Origin: a virus
Lineage: Duplodnaviria > Caudoviricetes
Virus record (IMG/VR): IMGVR_UViG_3300021964_009400
Strand: one strand, 5' to 3'
Length of the DNA: 64,000 nucleotides
The notes beneath the pieces were generated by a model. That model ran no database searches. It saw only the letters and a program-made list of their open reading frames with translations, and had not been told where the DNA came from. A program made the translations under genes and the position numbers. Positions 11,439 to 40,297 of the stretch are shown here, one piece after another (position 1 is the stretch's first letter; each line of letters opens with the position of its first letter).

Positions 11439-13463
11439 ATGGCATTAAATAGTTTAGATAGAAAACCAAATACTGGAAGAAATATAAAGTATCTTAATAA
11501 AGATTTTGCTCAATTTAGAGAAAATCTAATTCAGTATGCTAAAACTTATTTTCCAACAACCTATTCTGATTTTAATGAATCATCACCAGGTATGATGTTT
11601 ATAGAAATGGCATCTTATATTGGGGATGTTCTTTCTTATTATACTGATGATACTTTAAAAGAATCTTTAATTACAACTGCAGAAGATAGAGAAAATATTA
11701 TTGCACTTGCAGAGTATTTAGGATATAAACCAAAAGTAACTTCACCAGCAGTTGTAAAATTAGCAGTTTATCAAACAGTTCCTCCATTAGAAGCAGGAAC
11801 AACTAATGTTAGACCAGATGATAAATATTATTTAAGAGTTAAACAAGGAATGGTAGTTACTGCAACCATAGGCGACCAAAATTTTAGAACAACAGAGATA
11901 TTAGATTTTGCAGATGATAATGAAAGAGAAATTTCTGTTTACCAAACTGATGAAAATGGAGAACCTACGCTTTATTTAATAAAAAAATACATAAATGCAA
12001 TTTCAGGTGATTTAAAAACTATTACAAAAGATTTTGGTTCCACACCACAACAATTTGCAAAAGTATCATTGATTGAAAGTAATGTTGTTGATATCGTAGA
12101 TGTAAGAGATGAAAACAATAATAAGTGGTATGAAGTACCTTATCTTGCACAAGAAATGGTATTCACAGATTATGCAACAGGAGAGGCAAATGATAAAACT
12201 CTTGCACAATTTAAAGATAGTGTATCTAGTGTTTTAACAACACTAAAAACCTCAAGAAGATTTACAACAAAAGTAAATGCAAATAATACAACAACTCTTG
12301 TATTTGGTGCAGGTAATGCAACATCATCAGATGAACAACTAGTACCATCATTTAAAAATGTAGGATTGGGATTAAAATCATCTATTGATAAATTAGGTTC
12401 ATCATTTGACCCTGCTAACTTTTTGAAAACAACTTCATATGGACAATCACCAACTGGCACATTTACTATTCAATATGTAGTAGGTGGTGGAGTAGATTCA
12501 AATGTTGGTGTTGGTGAGTTAGTACAAATAGATAGAATAGAATTTGAAGATGATAGAGAAGTATTTTCAAGCGATGGAGAACGAATATTATTACAACAAT
12601 GTAAAAACTCAATAGCATGTGATAATGAACAACCTGCAACAGGTGGTAAAGGTGCAGATACAACAGAAGAAATTAGACAAAATGCATTGGCAAACTTTGG
12701 TACACAAAACAGAGCAGTAACAAGAAAGGATTATCAAGTAAGAGCATTATCACTACCATCAAAGTATGGTGGTATTGCAAAAGCATATTGTGCTCCTGAT
12801 GGAGAGTTAGATAATAACTCACCAAGTTCTATACTTACTGATAAAGATTCATTAGAAGAATTTGTAGGATTGGTAGAACAACTTAAAAATTCAGATTCAT
12901 CTGAAAAAGAAATTAAAGAAAGAGTTGTTCAATATCTAGGTGCTAAAAAGAAAAATGTAAATGAAAAAAATAATCCATTTGCTATTAACTTATATGTCTT
13001 GGGTTATGATTCTACAAAAGCTCTTACAACTTTAAATCAAGCAATAAAAGAAAATCTTAAAACTTATTTAAGTGAATATAGAATGTTAACTGATGGTGTT
13101 AATATAATAAATGGATTTATTATTAATATTGGTGTTGATTTTGAAATAAAAGTTTATAGTGGATACAATAAAAGACAAGTTCTTACACGAGTACAAATAG
13201 AATTAGAAAACTATTTTAATATAGATAATTGGACTTTTAATATGCCAATTAATATTTCTGAAGTTGAATTATTAATCGCAGGTGTAGAAGGAGTACAATC
13301 AGTACCAAAGTGTGAAATTACTAATAAATGTTTAGGAAACTATTCACAAAATTCATATAATATATCAGATGCAACTAAAGGTAAAATTGTTTACCCATCT
13401 TTAGACCCATCTGTATTTGAAGTGAAGTTTCCAAACAAAGATATAAGGGGGAGGGTAGTATAA
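11439..13463 (+). CDS. gp6: baseplate wedge subunit, gp6/baseplate-J-like
   Basis: YLNKDFAQFRENL, DFNESSPG, YIGDVLSYY, GGKGADTTEEIR and QNRAVTRKDY motifs. Confidence 0.9.
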   Translation: MALNSLDRKPNTGRNIKYLNKDFAQFRENLIQYAKTYFPTTYSDFNESSPGMMFIEMASYIGDVLSYYTDDTLKESLITTAEDRENIIALAEYLGYKPKVTSPAVVKLAVYQTVPPLEAGTTNVRPDDKYYLRVKQGMVVTATIGDQNFRTTEILDFADDNEREISVYQTDENGEPTLYLIKKYINAISGDLKTITKDFGSTPQQFAKVSLIESNVVDIVDVRDENNNKWYEVPYLAQEMVFTDYATGEANDKTLAQFKDSVSSVLTTLKTSRRFTTKVNANNTTTLVFGAGNATSSDEQLVPSFKNVGLGLKSSIDKLGSSFDPANFLKTTSYGQSPTGTFTIQYVVGGGVDSNVGVGELVQIDRIEFEDDREVFSSDGERILLQQCKNSIACDNEQPATGGKGADTTEEIRQNALANFGTQNRAVTRKDYQVRALSLPSKYGGIAKAYCAPDGELDNNSPSSILTDKDSLEEFVGLVEQLKNSDSSEKEIKERVVQYLGAKKKNVNEKNNPFAINLYVLGYDSTKALTTLNQAIKENLKTYLSEYRMLTDGVNIINGFIINIGVDFEIKVYSGYNKRQVLTRVQIELENYFNIDNWTFNMPINISEVELLIAGVEGVQSVPKCEITNKCLGNYSQNSYNISDATKGKIVYPSLDPSVFEVKFPNKDIRGRVV

Positions 13464-14521: not shown

Positions 14522-14522
14522 T

Positions 14523-15713
14523 ATGGCATTAACTGATAAATTTAGAATTAACGAACTCACACAAAAAGGTTCCAAGGTAGAGAGAAGAGATTCTGCTGGT
14601 AGAATATCTGTGCGCAGGGTTGATGGTAAAGAAGTTAAACCAAAAAATCAAAAATCAGATAAAGATTTTGGTCAAGAAGTAATCAAATTAAAAAACAAAG
14701 ACCCTAGATTTAAATCAGAACTTAATGAGGTGGATATTACACCTAACGAAGAACAAATTTCTTTTAGTGGAGAATCTACTGGCTATGTAGAAAAACCAAA
14801 ATATAATGAAGAAGAATTAAAAAAAGCAATAGATGTTAAGGTTGATGAACTTATAAAAGAAAAAAAACCTAAACGAGGACCATATATTTTAAAATCAAAA
14901 TATGATGATTTAAGAAAAAAGTACGAAGATGCGTTAGAACAAATTGCAGATTTAAGGAGACAATTATCCGAAGCAAATGCTGAAATTCAAAGATTACAAG
15001 GAGTGATACAACAACTTGAGGTAGAAACCGATTCAGCAAAATTACAACAAGCAGCTGCAGAAAACGAATTACAAGCTGCAAATCAAAGATATATTACTTT
15101 ACTTAGTGATTTCCAACAGGCAATTACAAAAGGTACAAAGGAAGCAATTGAAAGAGTATCATTAGAAGCACAAGTAAGAGGTTTACAAGCACAGAAAGAA
15201 ACACTAATTAGAATAGAAGAACAAGAAGAAGCAGCACAAGAAGAAACGGCAATTAGAGCAAACTTAAGTGGACCTGATAATTCATATGACCAAAAAGGTG
15301 ATAGTGGTTGGAAAATTCCTGGTCCATTCGGAGATAACCAATTATTAGAAAAAGGTAATTTTTATTTTAGAAGTAATAGAAAATCTTCAGGTTGGAATGG
15401 TCAAGATAGTCTTGAATTATATAACTTTAATGAAGAACAAGAAATTAGTTATTCGATTACTATTCAAGCAGGAAGAGGTGGACATGGTTCTCCTTGGATT
15501 GGGTTCTCAAAGCAATCTGGTACAATACCACCAAGAAGTGGAGAAACACCTGGTAAGGTAACTTTAGATGCAAAAAAAGTAAGAAATGTAAACTCACCAA
15601 GAGGAAGAAAAAGAGAATTTATAGATGATATTAAACTTACTATTGGAGAAGAAAGTTATGATTTAACTGCATATTTCTATCGTAAACTACGAACTGGAGG
15701 AAAAGGTAATTAA
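14523..15713 (+). CDS. structural protein with long central coiled coil
   Basis: Heptad-rich centre (about aa 125-250); lies in the tail operon. Confidence 0.55.
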   Translation: MALTDKFRINELTQKGSKVERRDSAGRISVRRVDGKEVKPKNQKSDKDFGQEVIKLKNKDPRFKSELNEVDITPNEEQISFSGESTGYVEKPKYNEEELKKAIDVKVDELIKEKKPKRGPYILKSKYDDLRKKYEDALEQIADLRRQLSEANAEIQRLQGVIQQLEVETDSAKLQQAAAENELQAANQRYITLLSDFQQAITKGTKEAIERVSLEAQVRGLQAQKETLIRIEEQEEAAQEETAIRANLSGPDNSYDQKGDSGWKIPGPFGDNQLLEKGNFYFRSNRKSSGWNGQDSLELYNFNEEQEISYSITIQAGRGGHGSPWIGFSKQSGTIPPRSGETPGKVTLDAKKVRNVNSPRGRKREFIDDIKLTIGEESYDLTAYFYRKLRTGGKGN

Positions 15714-17437
15714 TGGCTATACAAGACTTTAAAGATATAGAAGGAAGAAAAGGCTATCTTGTTGAAAAAGAAGATAGAAAGATATTTCAAAAAGAAATAT
15801 CAAAGGCAAACTTTGGTCTTGGTTGTGCTGATATGATTGAGTTTATTCTTTATGATGTTAGTGATAACAAATTACCACAAGGAGATGATGGAAAATTAGT
15901 TCGTTATATACACCTTGATGATGCAAATATTTCAAAATACTTTTTAATATCAGATAATATTTTAACAAAAAAGAAAGGCGATGTACCAGAATTTGTTGTA
16001 GATTTAGAAACTCTTATTAGAGAAGCTGGATATAGTAATGGTATATTTAAAACACAAGTAACTCTTTTAAACAGAAGATTGGGTAACGAAGGTGATGAAA
16101 ATGATAAACTGTGGATACACGAAATATCTCCTTCACGAACTGAAATTAGAGTTTTACCAATAAGAGCAAAAAAAGAAAATAAAGATTTAGAAAAAAGATA
16201 TAATGTTTTTACAAATGAAGATACTTTTAGAGATGATGTAATTTATTATATTGAAAATTTTATTGAAAGTTTTGATTTACAAAAAATTATATCAACATTT
16301 TTACTTTCAAAGGGAAAAGAATCTGATGGAAAGCAATATATAAATAAAATCAAAAAAGAATTTAAAATTCAAAACTTTGAAATATTCATGTATCAAGTTG
16401 AAAGAAAACTTGTAGAATCAATGAAGTATTATGCAAACAAACGAGTTTGGAATATAAATGATGTAAATTATGGGAAACCATCTGAAGCACAAGATTGTAT
16501 AGAATTATCAATTAAGAAATTAAAAGAAGATACAATTACTGCATTAATTAATTCTATTGATTATCATTTACCAAAAAGAAATATTTTAGATAATAGTGTT
16601 TTAACTAAAGAAGAACAAATAACTTTAGATAAAGTAAAACAATTATTAAAAACTAGAACATCTAATAATATTTACCAAACAACAGAACCAGAGGTAGTAG
16701 TTAGAGGTTGTACAGACCCTAAAGCAACAAATTACAATGAAACTGCAACAACAGACGATGGTAGTTGTTTGTATGCAACTAGAATTACAATAAAAGGTTG
16801 TACTGATTCAGCAGCTTTAAACTATGACCCTAAGGCAACTGAAGATGATGGTAGTTGTCAATATCCAACACAACAAGAAAAGAAAAATTACTATATATGG
16901 TCTGATATAGCATCATTTCAGTATAGAGATGGGAGTGGTATTTTACAAACTATTAATGGAGTTGAATATGATTCATTCTCAGTAAATCAAGAAAAAGGAA
17001 GCTTAAATGTATTGAATGGAGATGTAAGAGAAGTTCCTAAATTATCAGTAGCCGTTAATACATATTTTTATATAATACGAAATGATTGGAATCAGCAAAA
17101 CTTATTTAATGGTGAAATAAACTTAGGAGTTGGACAAATTGGGAATGTAAGTTATATAGATGCAAGTGGAAGCCCTAAAAATTCAAGTCAAATTAGACCT
17201 GGAGAACAAATTACTATTTGTGCACAAGAAGATAGCATACATGGGGCACACTATTTAACAGTCAATAAAACTGGTCAATGTATTATAAATGATTTAGGAG
17301 CAGGTGATACTATAATTGGTAGTGGAAGAATTAAACCAATTTATTCGAACCAAGATACAGTTAGCGTTGCTAATGATAGAGATATAATATCAAGAGAAGA
17401 AATACTATTAAACATAACAGAAAGGAGTGATTACTAA
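15713..17437 (+). CDS. structural protein with two GCTDxxAxNY...DDGSC repeats
   Basis: Repeats at 16706-16858; TAATG coupling on both sides. Confidence 0.6.
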   Translation: MAIQDFKDIEGRKGYLVEKEDRKIFQKEISKANFGLGCADMIEFILYDVSDNKLPQGDDGKLVRYIHLDDANISKYFLISDNILTKKKGDVPEFVVDLETLIREAGYSNGIFKTQVTLLNRRLGNEGDENDKLWIHEISPSRTEIRVLPIRAKKENKDLEKRYNVFTNEDTFRDDVIYYIENFIESFDLQKIISTFLLSKGKESDGKQYINKIKKEFKIQNFEIFMYQVERKLVESMKYYANKRVWNINDVNYGKPSEAQDCIELSIKKLKEDTITALINSIDYHLPKRNILDNSVLTKEEQITLDKVKQLLKTRTSNNIYQTTEPEVVVRGCTDPKATNYNETATTDDGSCLYATRITIKGCTDSAALNYDPKATEDDGSCQYPTQQEKKNYYIWSDIASFQYRDGSGILQTINGVEYDSFSVNQEKGSLNVLNGDVREVPKLSVAVNTYFYIIRNDWNQQNLFNGEINLGVGQIGNVSYIDASGSPKNSSQIRPGEQITICAQEDSIHGAHYLTVNKTGQCIINDLGAGDTIIGSGRIKPIYSNQDTVSVANDRDIISREEILLNITERSDY

Positions 17438-20400
17438 TGGCAGATAATAACGAAACTTTATTGTCTACAAATTCAACTAGTGGTACAACTCCAAAAAAGA
17501 TTGTTGACAACATAGCTGTCTTTGATACAAGTGGAGTTGGTACTACCATATTGACAAATAATTTAGTACCTAAAGCCGGTCAATTACCAATAAACAATTT
17601 AAATATTAATAACTTGGTATTGCCTATCAATAAAGGTTGTATGGATAGGTCAGCGTTAAATTACAATCCATTAGCAACTGTTGCCGATAATACAAGTTGT
17701 ATATATTCAACAAATATAGAAAATCCACTTTCGTTAAGTCCAAACTTAACAGTTGTTGTTAAATCAAATAGAGAATCGCAAATAATCATTGATGGTAATG
17801 ATTCACAACAAAGAACTACTGCTACATTTAATTATTCTGCGAAAGAATTGTTAAGTGGTAAAACATTTACAGTTAGAGCAAGTGAAAACTTTAAATCAAA
17901 TGATACATACAAAATTGCTGCAGTACAAAAAAGTTTTTTAAAAAATCTTAAACCAATTGTACCAGTTGAAAATTTTGAAATTGAATTAAATGAAAGAAGA
18001 TTAAATGATTTAGAAACTTTAAGACCTTTAGAAATTGGTAGTGTTAAATATTCTTATTATGAATTTCAAGTATTAAAAAATGGAAAACCATTTAAAACAT
18101 TCGAACTTGATTATAGAAATTTATTAGAAAATAGATTAGTAGAACTGAGTTTTAATCTTGAGAGTGATGGTATAAGAATAGACCCATCATCAGTTGGTAC
18201 TAATGTTTTAATCACATCTAATGTATCTTCAAATGATATAATAAGATATAAAACATCAACTGGTCAAAGTGATTTTTTACTTACAGATGACGAGGTAGAA
18301 TTACAACTTTCACGAAACTCATCAGATACACCATTATTTATTGAGTTTTTTGGTGTTGGTATAGATGATACAACACATACAGTAACTTATACATTTGATA
18401 CTCCAAACAATAGAGCAAAAAAAGTTGTAACTAATATTGATTACAAAATTGAATTACAAGAAGGTACTACAAATATAATCGTAGATGCAATAAAAATACC
18501 ACGAGTAAAACCACCATCTATACCTCTTTTAAATGTAAGTTCAAATCAATTCAAGTATAATATCAATGATAAAAACCCATTAAAAATAGTTTACAAAACT
18601 GTCAATGCTGATATTGTTGAATACTCATTAGGAAAATTAAAAAGAGAAATTGGACCAAATGGTAGTATTACTTTAAGTAGTAACGATTTTTCAAATGGTG
18701 TTGGTTCATATACCTTGTACCTACAACCAATAAATAAAGCAGGTGTTGGTGATATTGAAAAGGTTAGTATTATAGTTGAGAGTAAAGAATATTTACCAGG
18801 ACCGGATATTACAAACATAAACTATCCACAGAGTATTAAAGGTGCAGATTTCAAAGAATTTAATGTTCCATTTGATATTAGTTGGCAATCTATTAATACA
18901 GATTATATTAGAGTTTACGCTGGAAAGTATAACCCACAAGCAGAAAAAGATTTCTTTTTAGGACAGTTTTCTAAAACAGGCAATGCAAGATTTACAGTTG
19001 AAGATGTTTTAAGAGCTGCGAAAAGACAGTTTGATGAAGATGATAACATATTACAATTCCAATTATTCTTAATACCATTTAATGCACAAGGAGATGAATT
19101 AACTTCTGGTAAAGTAGAAAAGATAACAATTACTTTTGATAAAGGAGATTTAACTTTAAGAAGGGGAGATGTTATTGGTGATATTAGAAAAGCGTTTGAA
19201 TATTGTTTTGATTATTCAACCTTTGATGAAAGCACATCAACTCTTTTAACTCATTATTTACATCTTGGAGAAGGTGATAATAAATTAATATCAACTTATG
19301 GTATTGATACAGAAACATTTTCAGAGTACGAATTTATAAACGATACAAATGAAAGAAAAAAGATAAAAGAATCTAAATCCATTGTTTTAAAACTATACGA
19401 ACCACTAGATGGTGCAATCGATGTAAATGATAAGATATGGATTTCTAAAATTCAATCTATACCATTAATAGACCAGATAACAATTATAGATGATGTAACT
19501 ACAAATTGTATTCCTCTAACACCAAATTTAAGTTTAGAGTTAAACGATGATATTGGTTATCAAATTTATGATGAATTGGTTGCAAGTGGTTCGACATCAT
19601 CAGAATCAGTAATACAAGAATTTGTATCAGGTAGTGGATTTTCATTAGATACACTTCAGTTAGAATATACATCGGGTAGTGCAATACAATGGGGTAATTT
19701 TGTAAAATATTCATCTGCAAAAGAAAGAGTTGCAAACTTCTATTACAAAATCAAGTTATTAGAATCATATAGAAGTAAACACGAGTTACTAGCAACTGCA
19801 ACTGGTTCTGCAGGCTCAGTTTCAAGTCAAAACGAACAAAAAAGAATACTTGGAAAGATATCAGAAATTAAACAAAACTTCGATGCATTTGAAAAACATC
19901 TTTATACAGTAAGTGGTTCATTACAATATCCAAAAAGTGGAAGTGTTGTTGGTGATATTAAACTTACTAATACTGGTAGTTTATTAAATCCAACTGGCTC
20001 TGATGCAATTAATTGGTATAACGATACTTATGCAACTGCATCTTTATATGATAGAAATAATACAGAAAGATTAGTAAATAATTTGCCTATTCATATACAA
20101 GAAGATGATAAAGGACAAGAGTTTGTTTTATTCTTTGATATGATTGGACAGCATTTTGATATTTTATATCACTATATTAATAGATTATCAAAATCTAAAA
20201 AAGCTGAAAATAAATTTAAAGATGGAATTATAAGTGATTTAATGTATGAAATGTTAAGTTCACTTGGTTGGGATGCTGATTTAGGAATATCATCTGAAAC
20301 TCTTTGGGAATATGCATTTGGTGAACATTCAGATGGTACTCAAGTTTCTACAATGTCAGGTAAAGATAGACAACAAGAAACATGGAGAAGAATTTTAAAT

Positions 20401-22653: not shown

Positions 22654-22728
22654 TATTTATAGGTAATAAAAATTATTAAAAATATAAATCGTTATATTTA
22701 TATATTGTAACATAATAGGGAAAAAACT

Positions 22729-23352
22729 ATGGCATATTTAGATAATACAGAAATAACAGTAGATGCAATTCTTACTAAAAAAGGTAGAGAGAAACTTGCA
22801 TCGGGTGAAGGTCTTAATATCACCAAGTTCGCTTTAGGTGATGATGAGATTGATTACACATTATACGAACCGGCACACCCAAAAGGTTCAGCATACTATG
22901 ATGCAGCAATTAAAGCAATACCAATAACTGAAGCATCGCCAGATGAAACGCAAATTTTAAGATATAAATTAGTTACTCTTCCAAAGGGTACTACAAAAAT
23001 TCCAAAGGTAGAATTTGGTGTACCATCTATTTCTGTAAATCAGAATTCAGGTCAAGTTTCCCTTACACCAACTACATCACCAAGTGGAAATACACAAAGT
23101 GGATATACCGTAGTTTTATCAAATAAAAATGCAGGTAGTATTGTTGGAGCAGGTTTATCGGGTGTTGCAAGTTCAGTACCAACATTCTTAGGAGATGAAA
23201 TAACTGCAACAGCAGCAATAGAGACAGGATTAACATTTACATTTATACCTAATCCAAATATAACTGCTACAATTGCAACAACAATTACAGTATATGGTAA
23301 TGAAACTGGAGGTTCAGCAACGATACCAGTAACAATAACATATGTATCATAA
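22729..23352 (+). CDS. virion structural protein (baseplate/tail)
   Basis: DAILTKKGRE.LA.G...ITKFALGDDEIDY; lies in the tail operon. Confidence 0.6.
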   Translation: MAYLDNTEITVDAILTKKGREKLASGEGLNITKFALGDDEIDYTLYEPAHPKGSAYYDAAIKAIPITEASPDETQILRYKLVTLPKGTTKIPKVEFGVPSISVNQNSGQVSLTPTTSPSGNTQSGYTVVLSNKNAGSIVGAGLSGVASSVPTFLGDEITATAAIETGLTFTFIPNPNITATIATTITVYGNETGGSATIPVTITYVS

Positions 23353-23372
23353 TTTAAAGAGGAAATAATAAA

Positions 23373-24602
23373 ATGGCACAAATACAAGGACAAGCAGGAG
23401 TAAATTTGACACAAGAGTTGGCAAATTATTTAGATGCCAGTGGTGGTAGTCTTACTTCAGAACAATTATCAACGATTATCAACCAATATCTTTCAGGTGG
23501 TGATAAACTAGGTGCAACTGGTGGTTCAATTTCAAATGGTATATATAAAAGATTTGGAGAATTTGACCAAGTAAGTGGAAAAGTACAAGTTGTAACTACT
23601 GGTCTTTGGAGTGGAGATACTGGTTCCTTAACTACATTTTTTACTTCATCTACACAAGCTTCAGCAAATAGTTCAAATTATTATGTAAATGTATATGATA
23701 CTGCAGCTAATGATAATGTACAATTTGCAGTTGCATATGGACATAAATTTGGTAGTGGTTCAGTATCACTTGCAAATGATGATACATCTACTTTAGCAAC
23801 TAAAGCAACTTACGCACAATATAAATCAATTCTTTTAGACCAAGATGATACTAAATTTGTAGTTCCTAACATTTCTGGTTCAACTCAAGAAATAGATGAT
23901 ATCTTTGTTATTAACTTATCAAGAGCAAGATACAAAGAGAAAATGGATGCAGGAAACTGGTCATTAACATTAAATGGAGAAAGTGGTTCATTTACATTCA
24001 TTGATGATAGTGGAAAGAAATTTTCAGATACAGTTGGAAAAGCAGGTAGAGTATTTGATGTAGTAAAGGGTTCACTAAACTTAGGTTCAGAAAACGAAGC
24101 AACAATTGAATCAAAATATGCAAGTGGTTCCGATGCACAAGGACAAGGATTTGGTAAATTTTATCCAGACCAAGGAATTATAATTCTCAACCCAAAGGCT
24201 ATTCAAGATGAACTAAAAACATTTCCAAGAAATGCAGCAGGTGCAGTATCACAATCGTTATCATATGGAATTGCATCAGAAGCAAAAAATCATTTCTTAT
24301 TAGAAAGTGCAATTTCAGGTGGAGGAGATTTTGAAGCAAGAAGAACAGAAAATGTTTCTACATCACACTATTTTGTAAGAGCAACGAATAGAGAATTTAA
24401 CTTCTCAAATAACCCAACATTTGTAAGTGGTTCAGATAATTCATTTGCTGAATCATCTTTTGAAAAAGACCCAAAAACATTTATTACAACTATTGGATTA
24501 TATAGTGATTCAAACGAAATATTAGCAGTGGCTAAAACATCACAACCAATCGCTAAATCATTTGATAAAGAAGTATTAATCAAAGTAAAACTTGATTTCT
24601 AA
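23373..24602 (+). CDS. baseplate/tail-collar-like structural protein
   Basis: C-terminal FITTIGLYSDSNEILAVAKTSQPIAK; shares this C-terminus with the 24683 gene. Confidence 0.6.
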   Translation: MAQIQGQAGVNLTQELANYLDASGGSLTSEQLSTIINQYLSGGDKLGATGGSISNGIYKRFGEFDQVSGKVQVVTTGLWSGDTGSLTTFFTSSTQASANSSNYYVNVYDTAANDNVQFAVAYGHKFGSGSVSLANDDTSTLATKATYAQYKSILLDQDDTKFVVPNISGSTQEIDDIFVINLSRARYKEKMDAGNWSLTLNGESGSFTFIDDSGKKFSDTVGKAGRVFDVVKGSLNLGSENEATIESKYASGSDAQGQGFGKFYPDQGIIILNPKAIQDELKTFPRNAAGAVSQSLSYGIASEAKNHFLLESAISGGGDFEARRTENVSTSHYFVRATNREFNFSNNPTFVSGSDNSFAESSFEKDPKTFITTIGLYSDSNEILAVAKTSQPIAKSFDKEVLIKVKLDF

Positions 24603-24622
24603 AATTATTAAACTTTAATAAG

Positions 24623-24647
24623 AACCCCACTTCGAGTGGGGTTTTTT
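24623..24647 (+). terminator. Rho-independent terminator
   Basis: AACCCCAC-TTCGA-GTGGGGTT plus T-tract; same stem as the terminator at 5687. Confidence 0.9.
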
Positions 24648-27498: not shown

Positions 27499-27517
27499 AT
27501 TATTTTTCGTATATTTG
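27486..27517 (+). promoter_or_regulatory. Bacteroidota-type sigma70 promoter (TTTG-N20-TATATTTG)
   Basis: Matches the -33 TTTG / -7 TAnnTTTG consensus; upstream of the primase gene. Confidence 0.7.
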
Positions 27518-27537
27518 TATAGTTTTAAGTAGTAACC

Positions 27538-32776: not shown

Positions 32777-32927
32777 CCCTTAATACATTACTTGGCTTTG
32801 GTTGATTAATTCTTTGTTTAATCAATCTTTCTATCAATCCACTTTTGGTATATCCATTCTCACAACAGTAATCGTGTAATTCCTTATATAATTCCCTTTT
32901 AACTTGTATCGTAGTATATTTTCCCAT
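32766..32927 (-). CDS. ribbon-helix-helix (Arc/CopG-like) DNA-binding protein
   Basis: Not in the track (53 aa): MGKYTTIQVKRELYKELHDYCCENGYTKSGLIERLIKQRINQPKPSNVLRVKT; TATTTATA motif upstream on the minus strand. Confidence 0.72.
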   Translation of the reverse strand: MGKYTTIQVKRELYKELHDYCCENGYTKSGLIERLIKQRINQPKPSNVLRVKT

Positions 32928-33004
32928 AATCTATATAATTCTATATAATATATATTTATAAATATTATTTGAAGATATTTATATAAAGAAATTAGAAAAT
33001 CTTT

Positions 33005-36000
33005 ATGGCAATAATAAAATCATTTGCACCATTCCAAAATCTAACGAACTTTCAAGTGTTCGAAAATGATACTTTGTCTACCTCTGAATATTTTAGAATT
33101 ACAGAATTAAGCGAAACTTTAACAGGTGGAAAAAATGGATTTTTAATTGAAGGTTCTGAATTTTTAAAAGAAACAACAGAGGTAAAAATAGAAATACTTG
33201 ATGTTGAAGGAAATCCAATATATTTTGAGCCAGGAAAGGGTGCACCTGATTATTATGAAGGAAACTCTACATTAGTTTCTGTTCATGTGTATGATGATAC
33301 ACCAATTGGTATTGGAAAAATTACAATTTTAGGTGAATTAAAAAGTGTTTTAGGAGAGGAGAATGCAGTTGTTGATATACCCCAAGAATGGAAGGGTGTA
33401 TATAATGTCAAATGGGAACGACAAATACAAATAAATAAAAATATTGCAAATGAAACAATTGTAAGATTTTATAAAAGACCATTAGTAACGATTTCAGAAA
33501 TAGTAAAACCAGTATTTAGTAAAACAATAAATGATACAACAGATACTGGTAGTGTAAATGGATTTCCTTTACAACCACCATTAGGTCAAAACTTATCAGA
33601 GTGGAGAGCGGGTACAAATTATTTATTACAAAGAACATCAGGTAGTTGGGATAGTGATGTTGATGAAAATGTTATAAATATTACTATAACTAAAGATGGT
33701 AATGGAGATGTTTACAATAATGAAACTGGTTCTATATACACGGCATCTCAATTTCCAAATCAAACTCCAGCTACACAATCAGTACTTAGTGCAACAATTA
33801 TAGAAGTTCTAAATGATACAGATGTAATAATTGATATTCCATATGTTAGTTCAAGTTTAGTACAAAATATTTCTGATGAGGCATTTTCAGTATCATATCA
33901 AGATATAGAAAACGAAACAACAAGTGAAACTGCTATTACAGGTTCTTTTGCAAAGATTGATATTACACAACTAAAAACATTTGTTGGTGATGTTGCAAGA
34001 GTAAAGATATTTAGAAAATCAAGAAACGCAGTTGGTGATTTCCAATTTGTACAAGAAGCGAAATTAGAATCTCAAGAATTACTAAGAGATGTAACAACTA
34101 CAACAGATACAGAAGTATTTTATGGAAGATTATCAACCGATAACCTTTCTACATATTGGGAAACTTCAAATAGTGACCATCCAATAACAGTTGATTCTTC
34201 TCAGCTATTTAGAGCTGCAAAAATAGATTACAATAATGATAGTGGTAGTGTACAACAATTAATAACTTCTCAATCAATAAATGTATCAAAAGATGTTGAA
34301 TATACATTAGAATTCAAAACTCTTTTAAGTGGTTCAATAGATGATTCAAATAAATCTATAAGAGCATTTTTTAGTGCATCAAACTTTACACAAGATTTTT
34401 TAACAGTAAGTGGTTCTGCAATTTACCAATCAAGACAAGATATATCACAAAATATAATATTACAAAATTCAGGTAGTGCAAAATTAGTTTTTGAAGTTCA
34501 AGGAGATGATTGGTACATATCAAATATATCTTTAAGAAACGCACAAGATACTTCATTCTCACCAGATGAGTTTACAATCATACAAGATATACCGAGAAAA
34601 ACTGCAACTGAAACTTTTGATTTTAGATTTGAGTTTTATGATATAAATAATAATTTTATACCAGTAGAAGTAAAAGCAACAAAAGAATTTGATGGTGGTA
34701 ACGATTTTCCAACGAGTGGTAAATTATTTACTTTTGAATCAGATAGAAACGCATTTAGATTTTCAAGTGGTTCAATAGGTAATCCACCATTTCAACAAAT
34801 ACAATTTAAAACATCACAACAAAACCTTACAGGCACAACAACTTACGCATCTGCTGCATTTGATGAAGATGGTAATTATATAGACCCAAGTTCTTATGGT
34901 GGTGATTATCCTGGTGGTTTAACAAGTATTACTCCAGCAGGTTCTATAATTACAATAGCAAACTTTAGTGGTAGTGAAGATGATGTTGTAGTTGGTTCTA
35001 TTATTTATACTGCTTCACTAGATGGATTAGAAGAATTTGAAACTGTATATAGATTAGAAGATGGTGATAATGCACCTCAACTTATAGTAACTTCTAATGC
35101 AAATCAATTTATATACGAACCAACAACTCTTTCACCAAAACCAAGTGGACAAAGTATAACTGTAAGAGCACAGAGAAAAAACTTAGCATCTTTAGTAACT
35201 CCTATAACTGTTAATAGTGGTAGTAATAAACCAGCGTTAACATTTGTAGATACAGTAAATGGAATAGATACTTATACTATCTCTGCAACTCAATTTTCAT
35301 CTAACTCATTTGAATCTAATTCATTTGAGGAAGTAACATATGAATTTACTGGTTCAGATATTTTTGGAAACGAACAAACAGATGAAATAACATTATCTAA
35401 GGTAATAAATTTTGATGCAGTTTCTATTGTTTTAACAAATGAATCAACATCTTTTCCAGCAAAATCAACTGGTGAAATTTTAGGAGATTTAATACCATCA
35501 AGTGGTTCGGTACAAATGTTTATTGGTGGAAATCAAATTGAACATGATGATGAAATTGGTGATAGAACAAAAAATACATTTAACATAACATCTTCAATTG
35601 GTGATAATGTAACTCCAACAGATACAACTCCAAATACTTCAAATTATTCTATATCAGCATTTGAAACTACAAAAGATAGTGGTTCATTAACATTAACAAT
35701 TGATTATCTTGCTGGAGATGGTATTACATCACAATCATTTCAAAAGATTGTTTCATATACAAAATCTAAAAAAGCAGTTCCAACTGTCTTAACAAAAGTA
35801 TCACCATCAACACAAACGATTAATTCAAGTTCTGCCTTATTTGAAACTCCTCAAACTATGGAGGTAATTGTTCAAGAAGGTGGTGATGAGTATTCTTATG
35901 ATAGTAGTTTAACAGGTGGTGGTGATATAAACGCAAGAAAATTTGTAATAGATTCATTATCTGTTAATGTTGGTTCTGCCTCTTTTGATGATAATATTAT

Positions 36001-39000
36001 TACTTTATTTACAACATCGACTGTAGATGATATTCCAGAATTTACTGATGTAACTAATGGATTAACTGGTTCTGCATTTCTTAATTATGTAAATTCTGAA
36101 GGAACTTATGTAACTGGTTCAAGAGTTAGATTTGATTTATCAGTTTCTAAAATTGGGGTTGATGGTGTAAATGGTGCAAGTGGTTCAAATGCAAGAGCAG
36201 TATCTCTTTCATCAGATAAATACGCAATAGTATATGATGGTGATGGTAATCTACATCCATCAAATCAAAACTTTACACTTAATGGTTCTGCACAAAACTT
36301 TAACACACCTGAATTCCAATTCTTAAGTGGTGGAGCAGTAATACACGATTTCGCAACTACTTCTGAAGTTGTAATATCATCTTCTGGTTATCCATCAGCT
36401 GGAACTTCAATTATTTATGAAGTAAGAACAAGAGAACAAGGTGGTTCTTATGAAGGTGTGTTTGATAATATAGATGTGTTTGCAGTTCAATCTGGTTCTG
36501 ATGCTTTCACAGTATTTTTAACTAATGAAGCCCATGTATTCTCTGCAACATCAGAATCGGTAGTAACAAGTGATTTATCAGATGGTGCATTTGAGGTTAG
36601 ATTTTTTAGAGGAGGAGAACAATATAATAGTGGTTCAACTGGTAAAACATATAGCGTTTCAGCAACTACATCAAATATAATATTATCAGAGTCACTTGAA
36701 TCAAATAATCAAGCTAAATTTACTCCAACATCTATAAGTGGAGATAGTGGTAGTGCATCGATTACAATTACAGATAATAACACATCAAAAACATTTGATA
36801 AACAATATTCATTTACATTATCAAAAGAAGGTATTGCTGGACAAGATGGACAAGATGGTTCAGCAGGAGAAGATTTTAAAGCAGTAAAACTAACTTCTGC
36901 AAACTACATTATTTCATATAATGCAGCAGGCAGTTCACCATCACCAAGTGGTACAATAACATTAACTGCAACTTCACAAAACTTTACAAATGCATTTTTT
37001 AAATTTACAGGCGAAGGTATAACAGATGAAACTTCTTATACAGATGGTAGTGGAGCAAACTCCGATACATTCGATTTTTCAGTACCTTCATCATATTTTT
37101 CAACTCCAAAAGATATTAGAGTTGGTGTAGCAGAAGGAAATCAATCTGAATTAGCATTTGATACAATTACAATTACTGCAGTTCAGCCTGGTTCAGATGG
37201 ACAAGATGGAGACCCTGGCGATGCTGGTGCTGATGCATATACTGTTATTGTTACAAATGAAGCCCATACACTTCCAACTACAAATACTGGTACCGTAACC
37301 TACACTGGTTCGGGCACTTCGATTATAGTTTATAAAGGTGCAACTGAATTAAATAGTGTAACAAGTACACCAACTAGTGGACAATTTAAAGTAACTGCAA
37401 CTGCAACAAATATTACTGCAGGTTCACAAACTGTAACTGGTAATCCATCGGTATTTGCAAATGCAAGTTCAATTACTTCTACTACCGCACAAATTTCATT
37501 TGCAATTAATATTGAAAATCAAGTAACTATTACAAAAATACAAACTTTTAGTAAATCAATACAAGGAGACGATGGAGAAGATGGAGAAGATGGACAAGAT
37601 GGACAAGATGGTGGAACTGGACCTCAAGGAGATGCTGGTTTAAGAACTGCACAAGGTATGGTACATTATAATACTACTTCAGCTACTGCACCAAGTAGTC
37701 CTAATGATGGTACAACTTCATTTAATTTTAGTACTGGTGTAATGAGTGGTATGAGAAGTGGGTGGCAAATGGGTACACCTACTTATGAAGCTGGTAACTC
37801 AAATAAATATTGGTATGCAACCTTTACTTCAGTAGAAAATTCATCTGGTGCAGGAGTTGGTACAAATTCTAATAACTCATTTGGTACAGTAACACAAGCA
37901 ATTAACTTTACTGGTTTAGTTTCATTTACTGCAACAGATACAATTGGTGATGGTACTGATAATTTATCTTTTGGTGTTGCAGGTTCAACTTTAATTAATG
38001 GTGATAACATTTCAACTGGTCGAATTATATCTACAAATTATGTAACTGGTTCTGGCGATGGGTTTACAAATACTGGTACAGAATTTAGTTTAGATGAAGG
38101 ATTACTTGCTTCTAAAAACTTTACAATAAAACCAAACGGTAGTGCTTTCTTTAAAGGAGATTTGACTGGTGCAAGTGGTACATTCTCTGGTACTGTTCAA
38201 GTTGGTGGAACTACTTTAACAACTGGTAATACATTAAATTCTAACACAACTAAAGACGATGTAAATTTAGGTAATGTAGATAATCAATCTGCAGCAACAA
38301 TACAAGCAGGGACAACTGCTGCTAATGTTGGTTTAGGTAATGTTCAAGACTTAAATGCTCAAAACCAAGCACAGACAGGATTAATAGCAGGTACTACAAT
38401 TACTGGTGGTGGTATAACATTAAATGCTGGTGGTAACATAAAAGGTGGACAAACTGCATTTAATACTGGTACTGGTTTCTTTTTAGGATATAGTAGTGGA
38501 TATAAATTTTCAATCGGAGATGGTTCTACTAAGGGTATAACTTGGGATGGAAGTACTTTAACTATTGGTGGTAATGCACAGATTGGTGTAGATTCTATTT
38601 CTACTATACAATCAAATGCAAATAGTGCCTTACAAAGTGGAGATAATATTTCAGTATTAACTAATAATTCAGGCTACCAAAATAATAGTGCTGCAAAAAC
38701 TGCAGGAAGTGTTGGTGGTTGGACAATTGATTCAAATGCAATTTATAGAGGAACCGAATTAGCAGATAATACTTATGGAACTTCAACTGGTCAAATAACT
38801 TTAGGTGCAGGTTTTATAGGTGCAAAAGAATTTAAAATCAGCGCAGCTGGTGTTGCTTCATTTAAGGGTGGAGTTGAAAATGGTGCAACATTAGGTAATT
38901 GGAGTGTAAGTGGTGGGGATTTAGTAGATTCTACTGGTGTAATACAGTTAGACCCGAATGATAAGGCTATTAGATTAAAAGAAACAGATGGAACTGTTAG

Positions 39001-40297
39001 AGTAACATTAAGTTCAGCTGATTTAGCAAATATATCACCAACTAGAGATATTGATGCGAGTAACGCTGCACTTAATGAAGAATTAATATTTAATTCTAAT
39101 TCAACTTATTCAGGTCTAAATACATCATTTAATGGTGGTTCTTCATTGAGTTATAGTCAATTGACGATAGGAACAAGTGCAAAAACTTATGGTGCTACAA
39201 ATAAAGAATTAAATGAAGCAACTAGTAGTGCATATACACATGGTGGAGGGGGGTTACCAATTATAATACCAATTGGAAGTTCTGATAGGTCATCTAATAA
39301 CCACACAGGTAGAATAGAAATTAATGCACCAACTGCTTCTCCTTCTTATTATCTATACTTTGATGAAGCAGAAATGACATCAACTTTAAAATTAAAATAT
39401 GAAGTTCTATTAAAAAATACAGGTGGTTCATCAGCTGGGGCATTTTCACCAACTGGTAGTGCAGTTACAATTGATGTTGCTTCAATAAATACGACAGGTG
39501 GTGATGAATTAGTAGTTAGAAAAGGAGATTTTGTAAGCATTGGTCAACCTGCTGGAGCTAATTATCAAGCAATAAAATATTGGGAAGATTATGGGTTTGA
39601 ATGGAATGATTTCACAATAGAAACCACAGTAGCAGATGCTGCAGCTGGAGATTATAAAGTAAGATTAACATGGTTTATAGATTATGAACTTTCTGTTAAA
39701 GCAACCCAAACAGTAAATCCTTTGACATATCCTGGTCCTTATATGCAAGTTGAAGTTGATGTATTTGTACAAGATTTAAGTAATACACCTGTTACATTTG
39801 GTACATTTAATCAAGAAGTTGCAGTTGGATTAAATGGAGTACAAGTTTCGGGTGTATCGGGTTCAGTTTTAATAGGAGAAGTAAATGATTCAGGTGTAAT
39901 GTCAGTTTATGGTAATGCCCTTGTGACTGGTAAATTAACTGCCAATACAACTGCTTTATCTGATGAAAGATTAAAAAGTAATATACAAGATATACCAAAT
40001 CCACTTGATATAATTGATAGTATTCAACCTCGTTCATTTAAATGGAGAAACAATGTAAATCCAGATGAATTTAGAGAAAACTCTTTTGGATTTATTGCAC
40101 AAGAGATGACAGGTAGTTTACCACAATTTGTTAGCGTAGAACACCAACCAATAGGATATATAGAAAATATATTAACAATAGACCAAACTCCTTTAATAGC
40201 ATTAAATACTGCTGGTATAAAAGAATTGGTAACTAAAATAAGTTCATTAGAAACTAAAATAGAACAACTAGAGGCACAGATAAGTGGTTCTGAATAG
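33005..40297 (+). CDS. giant tail fibre/receptor-binding protein with collagen-like segments and C-terminal intramolecular chaperone (peptidase S74)
   Basis: SDERLKSNI chaperone motif; Gly-X-Asp triplets; repeated ~110-aa modules. Confidence 0.82.
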   Translation: MAIIKSFAPFQNLTNFQVFENDTLSTSEYFRITELSETLTGGKNGFLIEGSEFLKETTEVKIEILDVEGNPIYFEPGKGAPDYYEGNSTLVSVHVYDDTPIGIGKITILGELKSVLGEENAVVDIPQEWKGVYNVKWERQIQINKNIANETIVRFYKRPLVTISEIVKPVFSKTINDTTDTGSVNGFPLQPPLGQNLSEWRAGTNYLLQRTSGSWDSDVDENVINITITKDGNGDVYNNETGSIYTASQFPNQTPATQSVLSATIIEVLNDTDVIIDIPYVSSSLVQNISDEAFSVSYQDIENETTSETAITGSFAKIDITQLKTFVGDVARVKIFRKSRNAVGDFQFVQEAKLESQELLRDVTTTTDTEVFYGRLSTDNLSTYWETSNSDHPITVDSSQLFRAAKIDYNNDSGSVQQLITSQSINVSKDVEYTLEFKTLLSGSIDDSNKSIRAFFSASNFTQDFLTVSGSAIYQSRQDISQNIILQNSGSAKLVFEVQGDDWYISNISLRNAQDTSFSPDEFTIIQDIPRKTATETFDFRFEFYDINNNFIPVEVKATKEFDGGNDFPTSGKLFTFESDRNAFRFSSGSIGNPPFQQIQFKTSQQNLTGTTTYASAAFDEDGNYIDPSSYGGDYPGGLTSITPAGSIITIANFSGSEDDVVVGSIIYTASLDGLEEFETVYRLEDGDNAPQLIVTSNANQFIYEPTTLSPKPSGQSITVRAQRKNLASLVTPITVNSGSNKPALTFVDTVNGIDTYTISATQFSSNSFESNSFEEVTYEFTGSDIFGNEQTDEITLSKVINFDAVSIVLTNESTSFPAKSTGEILGDLIPSSGSVQMFIGGNQIEHDDEIGDRTKNTFNITSSIGDNVTPTDTTPNTSNYSISAFETTKDSGSLTLTIDYLAGDGITSQSFQKIVSYTKSKKAVPTVLTKVSPSTQTINSSSALFETPQTMEVIVQEGGDEYSYDSSLTGGGDINARKFVIDSLSVNVGSASFDDNIITLFTTSTVDDIPEFTDVTNGLTGSAFLNYVNSEGTYVTGSRVRFDLSVSKIGVDGVNGASGSNARAVSLSSDKYAIVYDGDGNLHPSNQNFTLNGSAQNFNTPEFQFLSGGAVIHDFATTSEVVISSSGYPSAGTSIIYEVRTREQGGSYEGVFDNIDVFAVQSGSDAFTVFLTNEAHVFSATSESVVTSDLSDGAFEVRFFRGGEQYNSGSTGKTYSVSATTSNIILSESLESNNQAKFTPTSISGDSGSASITITDNNTSKTFDKQYSFTLSKEGIAGQDGQDGSAGEDFKAVKLTSANYIISYNAAGSSPSPSGTITLTATSQNFTNAFFKFTGEGITDETSYTDGSGANSDTFDFSVPSSYFSTPKDIRVGVAEGNQSELAFDTITITAVQPGSDGQDGDPGDAGADAYTVIVTNEAHTLPTTNTGTVTYTGSGTSIIVYKGATELNSVTSTPTSGQFKVTATATNITAGSQTVTGNPSVFANASSITSTTAQISFAINIENQVTITKIQTFSKSIQGDDGEDGEDGQDGQDGGTGPQGDAGLRTAQGMVHYNTTSATAPSSPNDGTTSFNFSTGVMSGMRSGWQMGTPTYEAGNSNKYWYATFTSVENSSGAGVGTNSNNSFGTVTQAINFTGLVSFTATDTIGDGTDNLSFGVAGSTLINGDNISTGRIISTNYVTGSGDGFTNTGTEFSLDEGLLASKNFTIKPNGSAFFKGDLTGASGTFSGTVQVGGTTLTTGNTLNSNTTKDDVNLGNVDNQSAATIQAGTTAANVGLGNVQDLNAQNQAQTGLIAGTTITGGGITLNAGGNIKGGQTAFNTGTGFFLGYSSGYKFSIGDGSTKGITWDGSTLTIGGNAQIGVDSISTIQSNANSALQSGDNISVLTNNSGYQNNSAAKTAGSVGGWTIDSNAIYRGTELADNTYGTSTGQITLGAGFIGAKEFKISAAGVASFKGGVENGATLGNWSVSGGDLVDSTGVIQLDPNDKAIRLKETDGTVRVTLSSADLANISPTRDIDASNAALNEELIFNSNSTYSGLNTSFNGGSSLSYSQLTIGTSAKTYGATNKELNEATSSAYTHGGGGLPIIIPIGSSDRSSNNHTGRIEINAPTASPSYYLYFDEAEMTSTLKLKYEVLLKNTGGSSAGAFSPTGSAVTIDVASINTTGGDELVVRKGDFVSIGQPAGANYQAIKYWEDYGFEWNDFTIETTVADAAAGDYKVRLTWFIDYELSVKATQTVNPLTYPGPYMQVEVDVFVQDLSNTPVTFGTFNQEVAVGLNGVQVSGVSGSVLIGEVNDSGVMSVYGNALVTGKLTANTTALSDERLKSNIQDIPNPLDIIDSIQPRSFKWRNNVNPDEFRENSFGFIAQEMTGSLPQFVSVEHQPIGYIENILTIDQTPLIALNTAGIKELVTKISSLETKIEQLEAQISGSE
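37565..37640 (+). repeat. collagen-like G-X-Y coding repeat (9-bp units)
   Basis: GATGGAGAA/GATGGACAA tandem units encoding GDDGEDGEDGQDGQDGGTGPQGDAG. Confidence 0.8.

What the first reader, a model, noticed from the sequence alone, without database searches (positions are those of the whole stretch)
13463..40297. [S/T]-G-S tripeptide strongly enriched in five tail/baseplate proteins: candidate virion glycosylation sequon
Seen (manual counts): 22 copies in the C-terminal ~1020 aa of the 17437 protein and none in its first ~715 aa; about 25 in the 33005 fibre; 6 each in the 23373 and 24683 proteins; 3 in the 13463 protein. I saw none in gp6 or gp25, and they appear rare in the enzymes. A rough expectation from composition is about 1 per 500 aa, versus about 1 per 45-120 aa here. 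[ST]AS variants also recur. The same window encodes about 9 glycosyltransferases plus nucleotide-sugar enzymes. Inference: phage-encoded O-glycosylation of exposed tail and baseplate loops (glycan shield or adhesion), using a sequon distinct from the Bacteroidota D-[ST]-[AILMTV] site.
Basis: inference. Interest (0 to 1): 0.72.

Follow-up and report, generated by a model that had tools for sequence, protein, structure and literature searches.

The report
Ser/Thr-Gly-Ser tag on phage tail proteins
A three-residue motif, Ser/Thr-Gly-Ser, is far too frequent in the outer baseplate and fibre proteins of this abundant marine Flavobacteria phage lineage; it sits in exposed hairpin turns and occurs only in relatives that carry a particular pair of phage sugar-transferase genes, so it is probably an attachment signal for a phage-made sugar coat, though no chemistry has tested this.

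Summary
All other ORFs of the window together hold 2 (6.2 expected). The signal is sharply specific. SGS is 42 observed against 5.9 expected and TGS 21 against 5.2, while SGT, TGT, NGS and SGN sit at expectation. T4 tail proteins show no enrichment (7 against 10.3). About 150 metagenomic relatives, cultured Flavobacterium phage immuto and phage Mel-JY01 are enriched in the same protein families. Their gp6, w15713 and w22729 homologues stay empty. Sites lie in loops and beta-hairpin turns and turn over fast while density is kept, which does not fit a fixed structural motif. The window's own sugar island is not the correlate, because it is accessory. The correlate is a core module outside the window: a GT4 plus a small GT2 whose nearest solved relative is the flagellin O-GlcNAc transferase GmaR. 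It is present in 5 of 5 enriched complete genomes and 0 of 2 non-enriched relatives. I read the motif as a phage O-glycosylation sequon (about 50%). A lineage-specific turn idiom is the main rival. This scan noted the same motif before in at least seven other phage genomes.

The parts
13463..14521 (+). Baseplate protein just after the gp6-like wedge (352 aa); 3 [ST]GS at residues 131, 143 and 223
   Evidence: Orthologues keep 2-4 sites. Homologues in immuto and Mel-JY01 have 3 and 4; the LR756508 homologue has 0.
17437..22653 (+). 1738-aa baseplate/tail protein; 22 [ST]GS, all in residues 717-1738; weak LamG-like (Laminin_G_3) domain at about residues 1071-1207
   Evidence: The AF2 model of residues 700-1290 places sites 1097, 1109 and 1137 at the last strand residue plus a two-residue hairpin turn, and the other sites in loops. 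62 orthologues carry 6-22 sites each, spread over 63 alignment columns.
23373..24602 (+). 409-aa tail protein of a large family (1850 representatives); 6 [ST]GS
   Evidence: The AF2 model has pLDDT 89 and puts all six sites in loops or hairpin turns. Foldseek finds no PDB fold match.
24683..25822 (+). 379-aa tail protein whose C-terminus is related to that of the 23373 protein; 6 [ST]GS
33005..40297 (+). 2430-aa tail fibre; 26 [ST]GS, 20 of them in the first 1250 aa; C-terminal Peptidase_S74 intramolecular chaperone at residues 2319-2376
   Evidence: Homologues in relatives carry 6-14 sites against 1-2 expected.
22729..23352 (+). S/T/G-rich 207-aa neighbour that never carries the motif (internal negative control, possible avoidance)
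   Evidence: 0 [ST]GS in 96 distinct orthologues against 29.9 expected, although they hold 482 [ST]G-x and 309 x-GS tripeptides.
11439..13463 (+). gp6-like baseplate wedge subunit; no motif
   Evidence: PHROG 219, E 1e-21. 0 sites here and in the immuto, Mel-JY01 and LR756508 homologues.
15713..17437 (+). 574-aa structural protein, motif-poor (1 site here)
   Evidence: 7 observed against 33.9 expected over 103 distinct orthologues.
40305..58635 (+). Accessory sugar island: DUF6734 protein, methyltransferase, GT2-like protein, two GT7+LamG fusions (44428-45849, 46253-47722), TagD-like cytidylyltransferase, radical SAM enzyme, LamG protein, three SDR epimerase/dehydratases, RmlC-like epimerase and a split TPP enzyme
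   Evidence: Pfam hits. Present in G001 at 73-98% identity. Its GT7-LamG protein is absent from G002, G003, Mel-JY01 and LR756508, and in immuto only the epimerases match.

Best explanation
[ST]-G-S is an acceptor signal (sequon) for a phage-encoded, cytoplasmic protein O-glycosylation system that decorates exposed beta-hairpin turns and loops of the outer baseplate and fibre proteins.

Proposed steps, all inferred:
1. The small GmaR-like GT2 (207 aa) of the conserved core module transfers the first sugar to a Ser (or Thr) hydroxyl of the motif on folded or assembling tail proteins.
2. The adjacent GT4 enzymes (423 and 460 aa) extend the glycan.
3. Variable islands, such as the one in this window (two GT7-LamG fusions, methyltransferase, radical SAM enzyme, nucleotide-sugar enzymes), add lineage-specific outer sugars.

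The resulting glycan coat on distal tail parts would shield, stabilise or mediate adhesion.

What is shown: the motif statistics, its specificity, its loop location, its turnover with kept density, and its phyletic link to the glycosyltransferases. What is inferred: the modification itself, the modified residue, the enzyme order and the function of the coat.
For: 1. Specificity. SGS is 7x and TGS 4x over expectation, while SGT, TGT, NGS, SGN and DGS are at expectation. This holds in the window and in 150 representatives that share at most 50% identity (SGS 459/59, TGS 220/46, SGT 69/46). General turn propensity would also raise G-N, G-T and G-D.

2. Not generic to tail proteins. T4 baseplate and fibre proteins give 7 observed against 10.3 expected.

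3. Selective within one genome. The five families are enriched in about 150 relatives, in immuto and in Mel-JY01. gp6, w15713, w22729 and the SbcC-like enzyme are empty or depleted (0/29.9, 7/33.9 and 3/21.8 for the last three).

4. Sites lie in loops and hairpin turns. In homologues without the motif, the same positions hold polar or small residues (hydrophobic 7-17% against 32% background). The fold tolerates other residues: the w17437 homologues in L097 and L098 have 0 sites.

5. Density is maintained through turnover. w17437 orthologues have 6-22 sites each over 63 columns, of which only 2 are near-fixed. The motif Gly is less conserved than other Gly.

6. Phyletic link. GT4-423 and GT2-207 are present in all 5 enriched complete genomes (G001, G002, G003, immuto, Mel-JY01). 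They are absent from both non-enriched relatives (LR756508, RM378). They occur nowhere else among 50,697 phage records, apart from one weak partial match of GT2-207 in an Enterococcus phage (E 6e-4, 57% cover).

7. A profile of GT2-207 matches the flagellin O-GlcNAc transferase domain of GmaR over its full length (E 4.8e-8). The next hits are SunS (peptide S-glycosyltransferase) and GalT1 of the Fap1 glycan pathway. GmaR's function is taken from PMC9638930. The best solved relative of GT4-460 is chlorovirus B736L.
Against: - There is no chemical evidence of any modification in any member of the lineage.
- The phyletic test rests on 7 genomes that are not phylogenetically independent. GT4-460 also occurs in the non-enriched relatives.
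- L097 and L098, which are closer relatives, lost the motif in the w17437 and w23373 homologues but keep it in the w13463 or w24683 homologues. Their glycosyltransferase content could not be read.
- In the w23373 family most of the excess sits at about 14 recurrent positions, and sporadic sites are near the chance level.
- [ST]-G-S at a two-residue hairpin is also a good type II' turn sequence (own knowledge of turn statistics).
- The GT2-207 to GmaR match is remote homology, and GT2-207 has no substrate-binding TPR domain.
Confidence: 0.5

Rival explanations
1. A lineage-specific structural idiom. [ST]-G-S is simply this lineage's preferred sequence for tight beta-hairpin turns (Gly at L1, Ser at L2) in the beta-sandwich modules that make up its outer tail proteins. 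It spreads by domain shuffling and descent and is not modified.
For: In the confident LamG part of the w17437 model, three sites occupy the same position: last strand residue plus a two-residue turn. All six w23373 sites are in loops or turns. Residues at -1 and +1 are often hydrophobic, as at strand ends. About 14 recurrent positions carry most of the excess in the w23373 family. The w23373 and w24683 families share a C-terminal domain.
Against: - It does not explain the strict Ser at position 3, with no rise of SGT, SGN or SGD.
- Beta-rich neighbours in the same genome (w22729, w15713, gp6) have none.
- T4, LR756508, RM378 and the w17437 homologues in L097 and L098 do without it.
- The motif Gly is less conserved than other Gly, while density is kept over 63 shifting columns.
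- It does not explain the link to GT4-423 and GT2-207.
Confidence: 0.28
2. A sequon for another enzymatic modification of Ser, such as phosphoglycerol or another phospho-linked group, phosphorylation or acylation. Alternatively, a docking motif for a decoration or assembly protein rather than a sugar acceptor.
For: The same statistics, specificity, exposure and turnover fit any trans-acting reader. The window island encodes a TagD-like cytidylyltransferase and a radical SAM enzyme, and a radical SAM-SPASM enzyme sits next to the core module.
Against: The genes that track the motif are glycosyltransferases, one of them GmaR-like. No kinase or phosphotransferase was found to co-vary, but this was not searched systematically.
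Confidence: 0.12
3. A chance, compositional or DNA-level artefact: Ser/Gly-rich composition, internal repeats or a nucleotide motif.
For: The five proteins are Ser-, Thr- and Gly-rich, the SG and GS dipeptides are themselves enriched, and the Gly codon in the motif is 94% GGT.
Against: - 0 of 20,000 shuffles reach the observed count for the two large proteins.
- A first-order Markov expectation still leaves SGS at z 5.4.
- Contexts are diverse and not tandem repeats.
- Matches occur only in frame 0, with synonymous Ser codons, and the GGT bias follows from GATC avoidance (2 observed, 165 expected).
Confidence: 0.02

Closest known systems
Mycobacteriophage virion O-glycosylation (Freeman et al. 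2023, Cell Host Microbe; known to me only through citations in PMC12619734 and PMC12801897, paper not held)
   Same: Phage-encoded soluble glycosyltransferases are thought to decorate the phage's own structural proteins in the cytoplasm and so form a glycan coat.
   Different: In that system the targets are the C-termini of capsid and tail-tube subunits, the hosts are Actinobacteria, and the modification was shown by chemistry. Here the candidate targets are internal hairpin turns of baseplate and fibre proteins, marked by a short [ST]GS signal, in phages of Flavobacteria. tblastn found no homologue of GT2-207, GT4-423 or GT4-460 in any mycobacteriophage record. Nothing has been shown chemically here.
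Listeria monocytogenes GmaR, flagellin beta-O-GlcNAc transferase (GT2 domain; PMC9638930)
   Same: It is the best solved relative of the motif-linked GT2-207, with a full-length profile match at E 4.8e-8. It is a cytoplasmic GT-A enzyme that puts a sugar directly on Ser/Thr of a surface-exposed structural protein before assembly.
   Different: GmaR carries TPR and anti-repressor domains, whereas GT2-207 is the bare catalytic domain. I know of no [ST]GS consensus for flagellin. The homology is remote.
Chlorovirus capsid glycosylation by virus-encoded glycosyltransferases (PBCV-1 Vp54; NY-2A B736L, PDB 3oy2)
   Same: The virus encodes its own cytoplasmic glycosyltransferases and nucleotide-sugar enzymes and uses non-canonical acceptor sites. 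B736L is the best solved relative of GT4-460 (E 1e-11).
   Different: It is a eukaryotic virus, the glycans are N-linked to Asn on the major capsid protein (own knowledge), and the acceptor context is different.
Bacteroidota general protein O-glycosylation, sequon D-[ST]-[AILVMT]
   Same: It belongs to the same host phylum and is a short three-residue O-glycosylation signal.
   Different: That system is periplasmic and built by the host on a lipid carrier, so it would not reach proteins assembled in the cytoplasm. Its sequon is not enriched in the five proteins (22 observed, 27.6 expected).
Bacterial autotransporter heptosyltransferases (Aah/TibC) acting on AIDA-I/TibA (own knowledge)
   Same: A cytoplasmic enzyme modifies many Ser residues in short loops between beta-strands of a beta-rich surface protein. 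Recognition is partly structural (strand, short loop, strand).
   Different: It is a different enzyme family using ADP-heptose, with no strict tripeptide signal, and it is not a phage system.

Membership tests
Phage virion glycosylation system (mycobacteriophage type) | The phage encodes soluble glycosyltransferases | tested here: met
   Pfam hits for GT2, GT4 and GT7 domains in the window island and in the core module. No flippase or oligosaccharyltransferase appeared among the ORFs scanned.
Phage virion glycosylation system (mycobacteriophage type) | Glycan covalently attached to virion proteins (MS or glycan staining) | not testable with these tools
   Needs purified virions. Cultured phage immuto (MW353176) would serve.
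Phage virion glycosylation system (mycobacteriophage type) | Glycosyltransferases homologous to those of glycosylated mycobacteriophages | tested here: not met
   tblastn of GT2-207, GT4-423 and GT4-460 against 50,697 phage records returned no mycobacteriophage. More remote homology was not excluded.
Phage virion glycosylation system (mycobacteriophage type) | Acceptor sites at the C-terminal tails of capsid and tail-tube subunits | tested here: not met
   Sites are internal loops of baseplate and fibre proteins. The major capsid protein has 1 site, and the other head-module ORFs have none except a 383-aa head-completion-like protein with 3.
GmaR-like protein O-glycosyltransferase (GT2, GT-A fold) | Full-length similarity to the GmaR catalytic domain | tested here: met
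   Profile A3 against PDB: GmaR at E 4.8e-8 over profile positions 4-203 of 208. SunS (E 1e-5) and GalT1 (E 8e-5) follow.
GmaR-like protein O-glycosylation (GT2, GT-A fold) | DxD-type metal and nucleotide-sugar binding motif | tested here: met
   D91-A92-D93 are invariant in the six-sequence alignment A3, whose members are 40-91% identical to the first sequence.
GmaR-like protein O-glycosyltransferase (GT2, GT-A fold) | Substrate-recognition (TPR) domain and demonstrated transfer to a protein Ser/Thr | tested here: not met
   GT2-207 consists of the catalytic domain only (207 aa). Activity cannot be tested here.
Bacteroidota general O-glycosylation | D-[ST]-[AILVMT] sequon on exported proteins | tested here: not met
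   22 observed against 27.6 expected in the five proteins. Virion proteins are assembled in the cytoplasm.
Functional sequon (any modification) | Motif density maintained while individual sites turn over, with depletion in non-target proteins | tested here: met
   The caveat is that the orthologues are not phylogenetically independent.
Functional sequon (any modification) | Co-occurrence of the motif with the modifying enzyme across genomes | tested here: inconclusive
   5 of 5 enriched against 0 of 2 non-enriched complete genomes. There are few independent contrasts, and L097 and L098 could not be read.

The most novel reading that the evidence does not exclude
An abundant, globally distributed lineage of marine Flavobacteria myophages uses a previously undescribed three-residue sequon, [ST]-G-S, read on folded beta-hairpin turns by a minimal GmaR-like GT2. 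It lays a glycan coat on baseplate and fibres. Hypervariable sugar islands next to the fibre gene diversify the outer sugars, giving a phage counterpart of O-antigen variation. The motif is selected against in every other phage protein.
Probability: 0.35. Interest if true: 0.85.

Novelty: new variant of a known kind. Interest (0 to 1): 0.7.

Why it matters
Virion glycosylation has been shown chemically in only a few phages (mycobacteriophages), and no phage sequon is known. A short, countable signal would allow glycosylated virion surfaces to be predicted from sequence alone across thousands of uncultured marine phages.

It would also name a minimal protein O-glycosyltransferase that reads a tripeptide on folded hairpins, which could be useful for glyco-engineering. 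It would explain why large phages of Bacteroidota carry several big, variable sugar islands.

A cultured member, Flavobacterium phage immuto, has 26 sites in one tail spike, so the idea can be tested directly.

Tried and rejected
- DNA-level motif: rejected. Matches are in frame 0 only, Ser codons are synonymous, and the GGT bias follows from GATC avoidance.
- Tandem or internal repeats as the source: rejected. Contexts are diverse and spacing is irregular.
- The window's GT7-LamG island as the enzyme set tied to the motif: rejected, because the island is accessory.
- All-or-none loss across sites in the w23373 family: only modest over-dispersion (variance 2.13 against 1.61 +/- 0.20).
- Stronger purifying selection on motif residues than on other Ser: weak (0.58 against 0.49, p 0.07), and the motif Gly is less conserved than other Gly.
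- Foldseek of the w23373 model against PDB: no match.
- megablast of window 8000-20000 against the phage collection: no match.
- Reading the glycosyltransferase content of the motif-poor relatives L097 and L098: their records are not held.
- Freeman et al. 2023 could not be read.
- Literature searches for an SGS-type bacterial or phage sequon found nothing relevant.
Secondary structure and substitution patterns served as proxies.
- No complex prediction was run. Enzyme-substrate pairs are a poor use of that tool.
Full report
**What the window is.** The window is AT-rich (about 29% GC) and all genes lie on the + strand. It holds the baseplate and fibre module of an uncultured marine T4-like phage. 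The gp6-like wedge protein (11439-13463; PHROG 219) is 37-41% identical to those of Flavobacterium phage vB_FspM_immuto, 'Microcystis' phage Mel-JY01 and the 484-kb uncultured phage LR756508. Downstream of the fibre gene lies a real sugar island. It encodes two GT7 domains fused to LamG lectin-like domains, a GT2-like protein, a methyltransferase, a TagD-like cytidylyltransferase, a radical SAM enzyme, three SDR epimerase/dehydratases, an RmlC-like epimerase and a split TPP enzyme.

**The observation.** The counts are exactly as reported: 3, 22, 6, 6 and 26. The first site of the 17437 protein is at residue 717. In 20,000 shuffles per protein, none reached the observed count for the two large proteins. 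The count was reached 2, 6 and 172 times for w24683, w23373 and w13463. All other ORFs together hold 2 against 6.2 expected.

An unbiased tripeptide scan ranks SGS first among non-trivial tripeptides (42 against 5.9), with TGS at 21 against 5.2. SGT, TGT, NGS, SGN, GGS and DGS are at expectation. The middle residue is Gly (5.7x), with Ala a weak second (2.2x).

The signal is at the protein level. It appears only in frame 0 and with varied Ser codons. The 94% GGT usage follows from the near absence of GATC in this genome (2 against 165 expected), which forbids GGA before TCN.

**Not a general property of tail proteins.** T4 gp5-12, wac, gp18, gp23 and gp34-37 hold 7 against 10.3 expected, and no x-G-y tripeptide stands out.

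**A lineage-wide, protein-selective trait.**
- In 80 IMG/VR relatives (63-82% identity) the same five families are enriched 4.6-8.2x. w22729, w15713 and the SbcC-like enzyme are empty or depleted.
- A second set of 76 more distant loci shows the same pattern.
- Over 96 distinct w22729 orthologues there are 482 [ST]G-x and 309 x-GS tripeptides but not one [ST]GS, against 29.9 expected. This count is not phylogenetically independent.
- Cultured phage immuto shows the pattern strongly. One tail spike has 26 against 5.9, a 211-aa protein 8 against 1.5, a 373-aa structural protein 12 against 1.3 and the sheath 7 against 1.3. Its gp6, portal and terminase have none.
- Mel-JY01 behaves the same way.
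- In 150 representatives of the w23373 family, which share at most 50% identity, SGS is 459 against 59 and TGS 220 against 46, while SGT is 69 against 46.

**Relatives without the trait.**
- LR756508 is as close by gp6 as immuto, yet its homologues hold 0, 2, 3 and 0 sites, about 5 against 1.7 expected.
- The w23373 homologue of Rhodothermus phage RM378 has 1 against 0.43.
- Two closer metagenomic relatives (L097, L098) have w17437 homologues of 1406 and 1675 aa with no site at all. At the aligned positions they carry NGY, QSK, DQN, SSA and similar tripeptides. However, L098's w24683 homologue keeps 6 sites and L097's w13463 homologue keeps 3.

The fold therefore does not need the motif.

**Structure.**
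- The AF2 model of w23373 (pLDDT 89) puts all six sites in loops or hairpin turns.
- In the confident LamG part of the w17437 model, sites 1097, 1109 and 1137 each form the last strand residue plus a two-residue hairpin turn. The other sites are in loops.
- In homologues that lack a given site, the three positions hold mostly polar or small residues (hydrophobic 7-17% against 32% background). This fits exposed turns.
- Flanking residues at -1 and +1 tend to be hydrophobic, as at strand ends.

**Evolutionary behaviour.** Motif residues are hardly more conserved than other Ser (0.58 against 0.49), and the motif Gly is less conserved than other Gly (0.62 against 0.78). Yet every one of 62 w17437 orthologues keeps 6-22 sites (2.5 expected). 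These are spread over 63 alignment columns, of which only 2 are near-fixed. The window shares about 6 sites with a typical orthologue, which has about 5 private ones. Density is conserved while positions are not. This is how sequons behave, not fixed structural elements. In the smaller w23373 family, about 14 recurrent positions hold most of the excess and sporadic sites are near the chance level, so the picture is mixed.

**Which enzymes go with it.**
- The window's island is not conserved. Only epimerases match in immuto. The GT7-LamG protein is found in G001 only and not in G002, G003, Mel-JY01 or LR756508.
- A different, core module is conserved: GT4-460, GT4-423, GT2-207 and an epimerase.
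- GT4-423 and GT2-207 are present in G001, G002, G003, immuto and Mel-JY01, all of which are enriched. They are absent from the whole LR756508 record and from RM378. They occur nowhere else among 50,697 phage records, apart from one weak partial match of GT2-207 in an Enterococcus phage.
- GT4-460 also occurs in LR756508 and RM378, so it does not discriminate.
- A profile of GT2-207 matches the flagellin O-GlcNAc transferase domain of Listeria GmaR over its full length (E 4.8e-8). The next hits are the peptide S-glycosyltransferase SunS and GalT1 of the Fap1 pathway. GmaR's activity is taken from PMC9638930.
- The nearest solved relative of GT4-460 is chlorovirus B736L.

**Reading.** The most economical account is a phage-encoded cytoplasmic O-glycosylation of exposed hairpin turns marked by [ST]GS. 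A GmaR-like GT2 would start the glycan, GT4 enzymes would extend it, and variable islands such as the one in this window would supply lineage-specific outer sugars. I put this at about 0.5.

The main rival, at about 0.28, is an unmodified, lineage-specific hairpin-turn idiom. It fits the structural positions. It does not explain the strict Ser at position 3, the empty beta-rich neighbours, the turnover or the glycosyltransferase link. Another Ser modification or a docking motif takes about 0.12. Chance or composition is excluded.

**Limits.** No chemistry exists. The co-occurrence rests on seven non-independent genomes. The glycosyltransferases could act on DNA or on the host surface. The motif-poor relatives L097 and L098 could not be checked for the module.

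**Prior knowledge.** My literature searches found no described [ST]GS sequon. The known precedent for phage virion glycosylation is the mycobacteriophage work, cited in PMC12619734. That paper is not held.

This scan had already noted the same motif in at least seven other phage genomes. Two follow-ups reached a similar reading. I treat these as leads, not as support.

Noticed in passing
window 1-64000: GATC is almost absent: 2 observed against 165 expected. This suggests avoidance of a GATC-specific restriction system or Dam site, and it shapes codon pairs (GGT rather than GGA before TCN).
   Followed up: partly
window 39959-40130 (fibre residues 2319-2376): The 2430-aa fibre ends in a Peptidase_S74 intramolecular chaperone domain, so its last roughly 110 residues are probably cleaved off after trimerisation. 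The protein ends ...SGSE.
   Followed up: no
window 52883-53527 and 56643-57191: A TPP-dependent enzyme is split into two genes (an E1/DXP-synthase-like N part and a transketolase Pyr part) separated by four other genes. With the radical SAM enzyme and methyltransferase, this hints at an unusual branched or modified sugar.
   Followed up: no
window 44428-45849 and 46253-47722: Two paralogous GT7 (beta-4-galactosyltransferase-like N and C domains) fusions to LamG lectin-like domains. GT7 is rare in phages. The pair is present only in the closest relative, G001.
   Followed up: partly
window 22729-23352: This S/T/G-rich 207-aa protein (weak RibLong hit) carries no [ST]GS in 96 distinct orthologues against about 30 expected. 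This may reflect active avoidance of the motif.
   Followed up: partly
window 23373-24602: The confident AF2 model (pLDDT 89, pTM 0.80) has no Foldseek match in PDB. The family has 1850 representatives, often with multiple paralogues per genome and with N-terminal extensions.
   Followed up: partly
L088:1534-2781 (G001, next to the core GT module): A radical SAM protein with an N-terminal SPASM-like segment, paralogous (24% identity) to the window's 47747-49195 radical SAM enzyme, lies two genes upstream of GT4-460, separated from it by a PD-(D/E)XK nuclease gene.
   Followed up: no
L098:11904-19626: A motif-poor relative on a 301-kb JGI contig carries six LamG_3-domain genes, in a run broken only by two small ORFs, downstream of the baseplate block. 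Two of them also have Gly_rich_2 domains.
   Followed up: no
L096:15773-16924 (Rhodothermus phage RM378): A UDP-galactopyranose-mutase-like gene lies three genes downstream of the w23373-like tail gene, although RM378 shows no [ST]GS enrichment.
   Followed up: no
G000:C1:82863-84014 (beyond the window end): A 383-aa homologue of immuto's putative head completion protein carries 3 [ST]GS (0.29 expected), two of them in its first 17 residues. It is the only head-module protein with an excess.
   Followed up: partly
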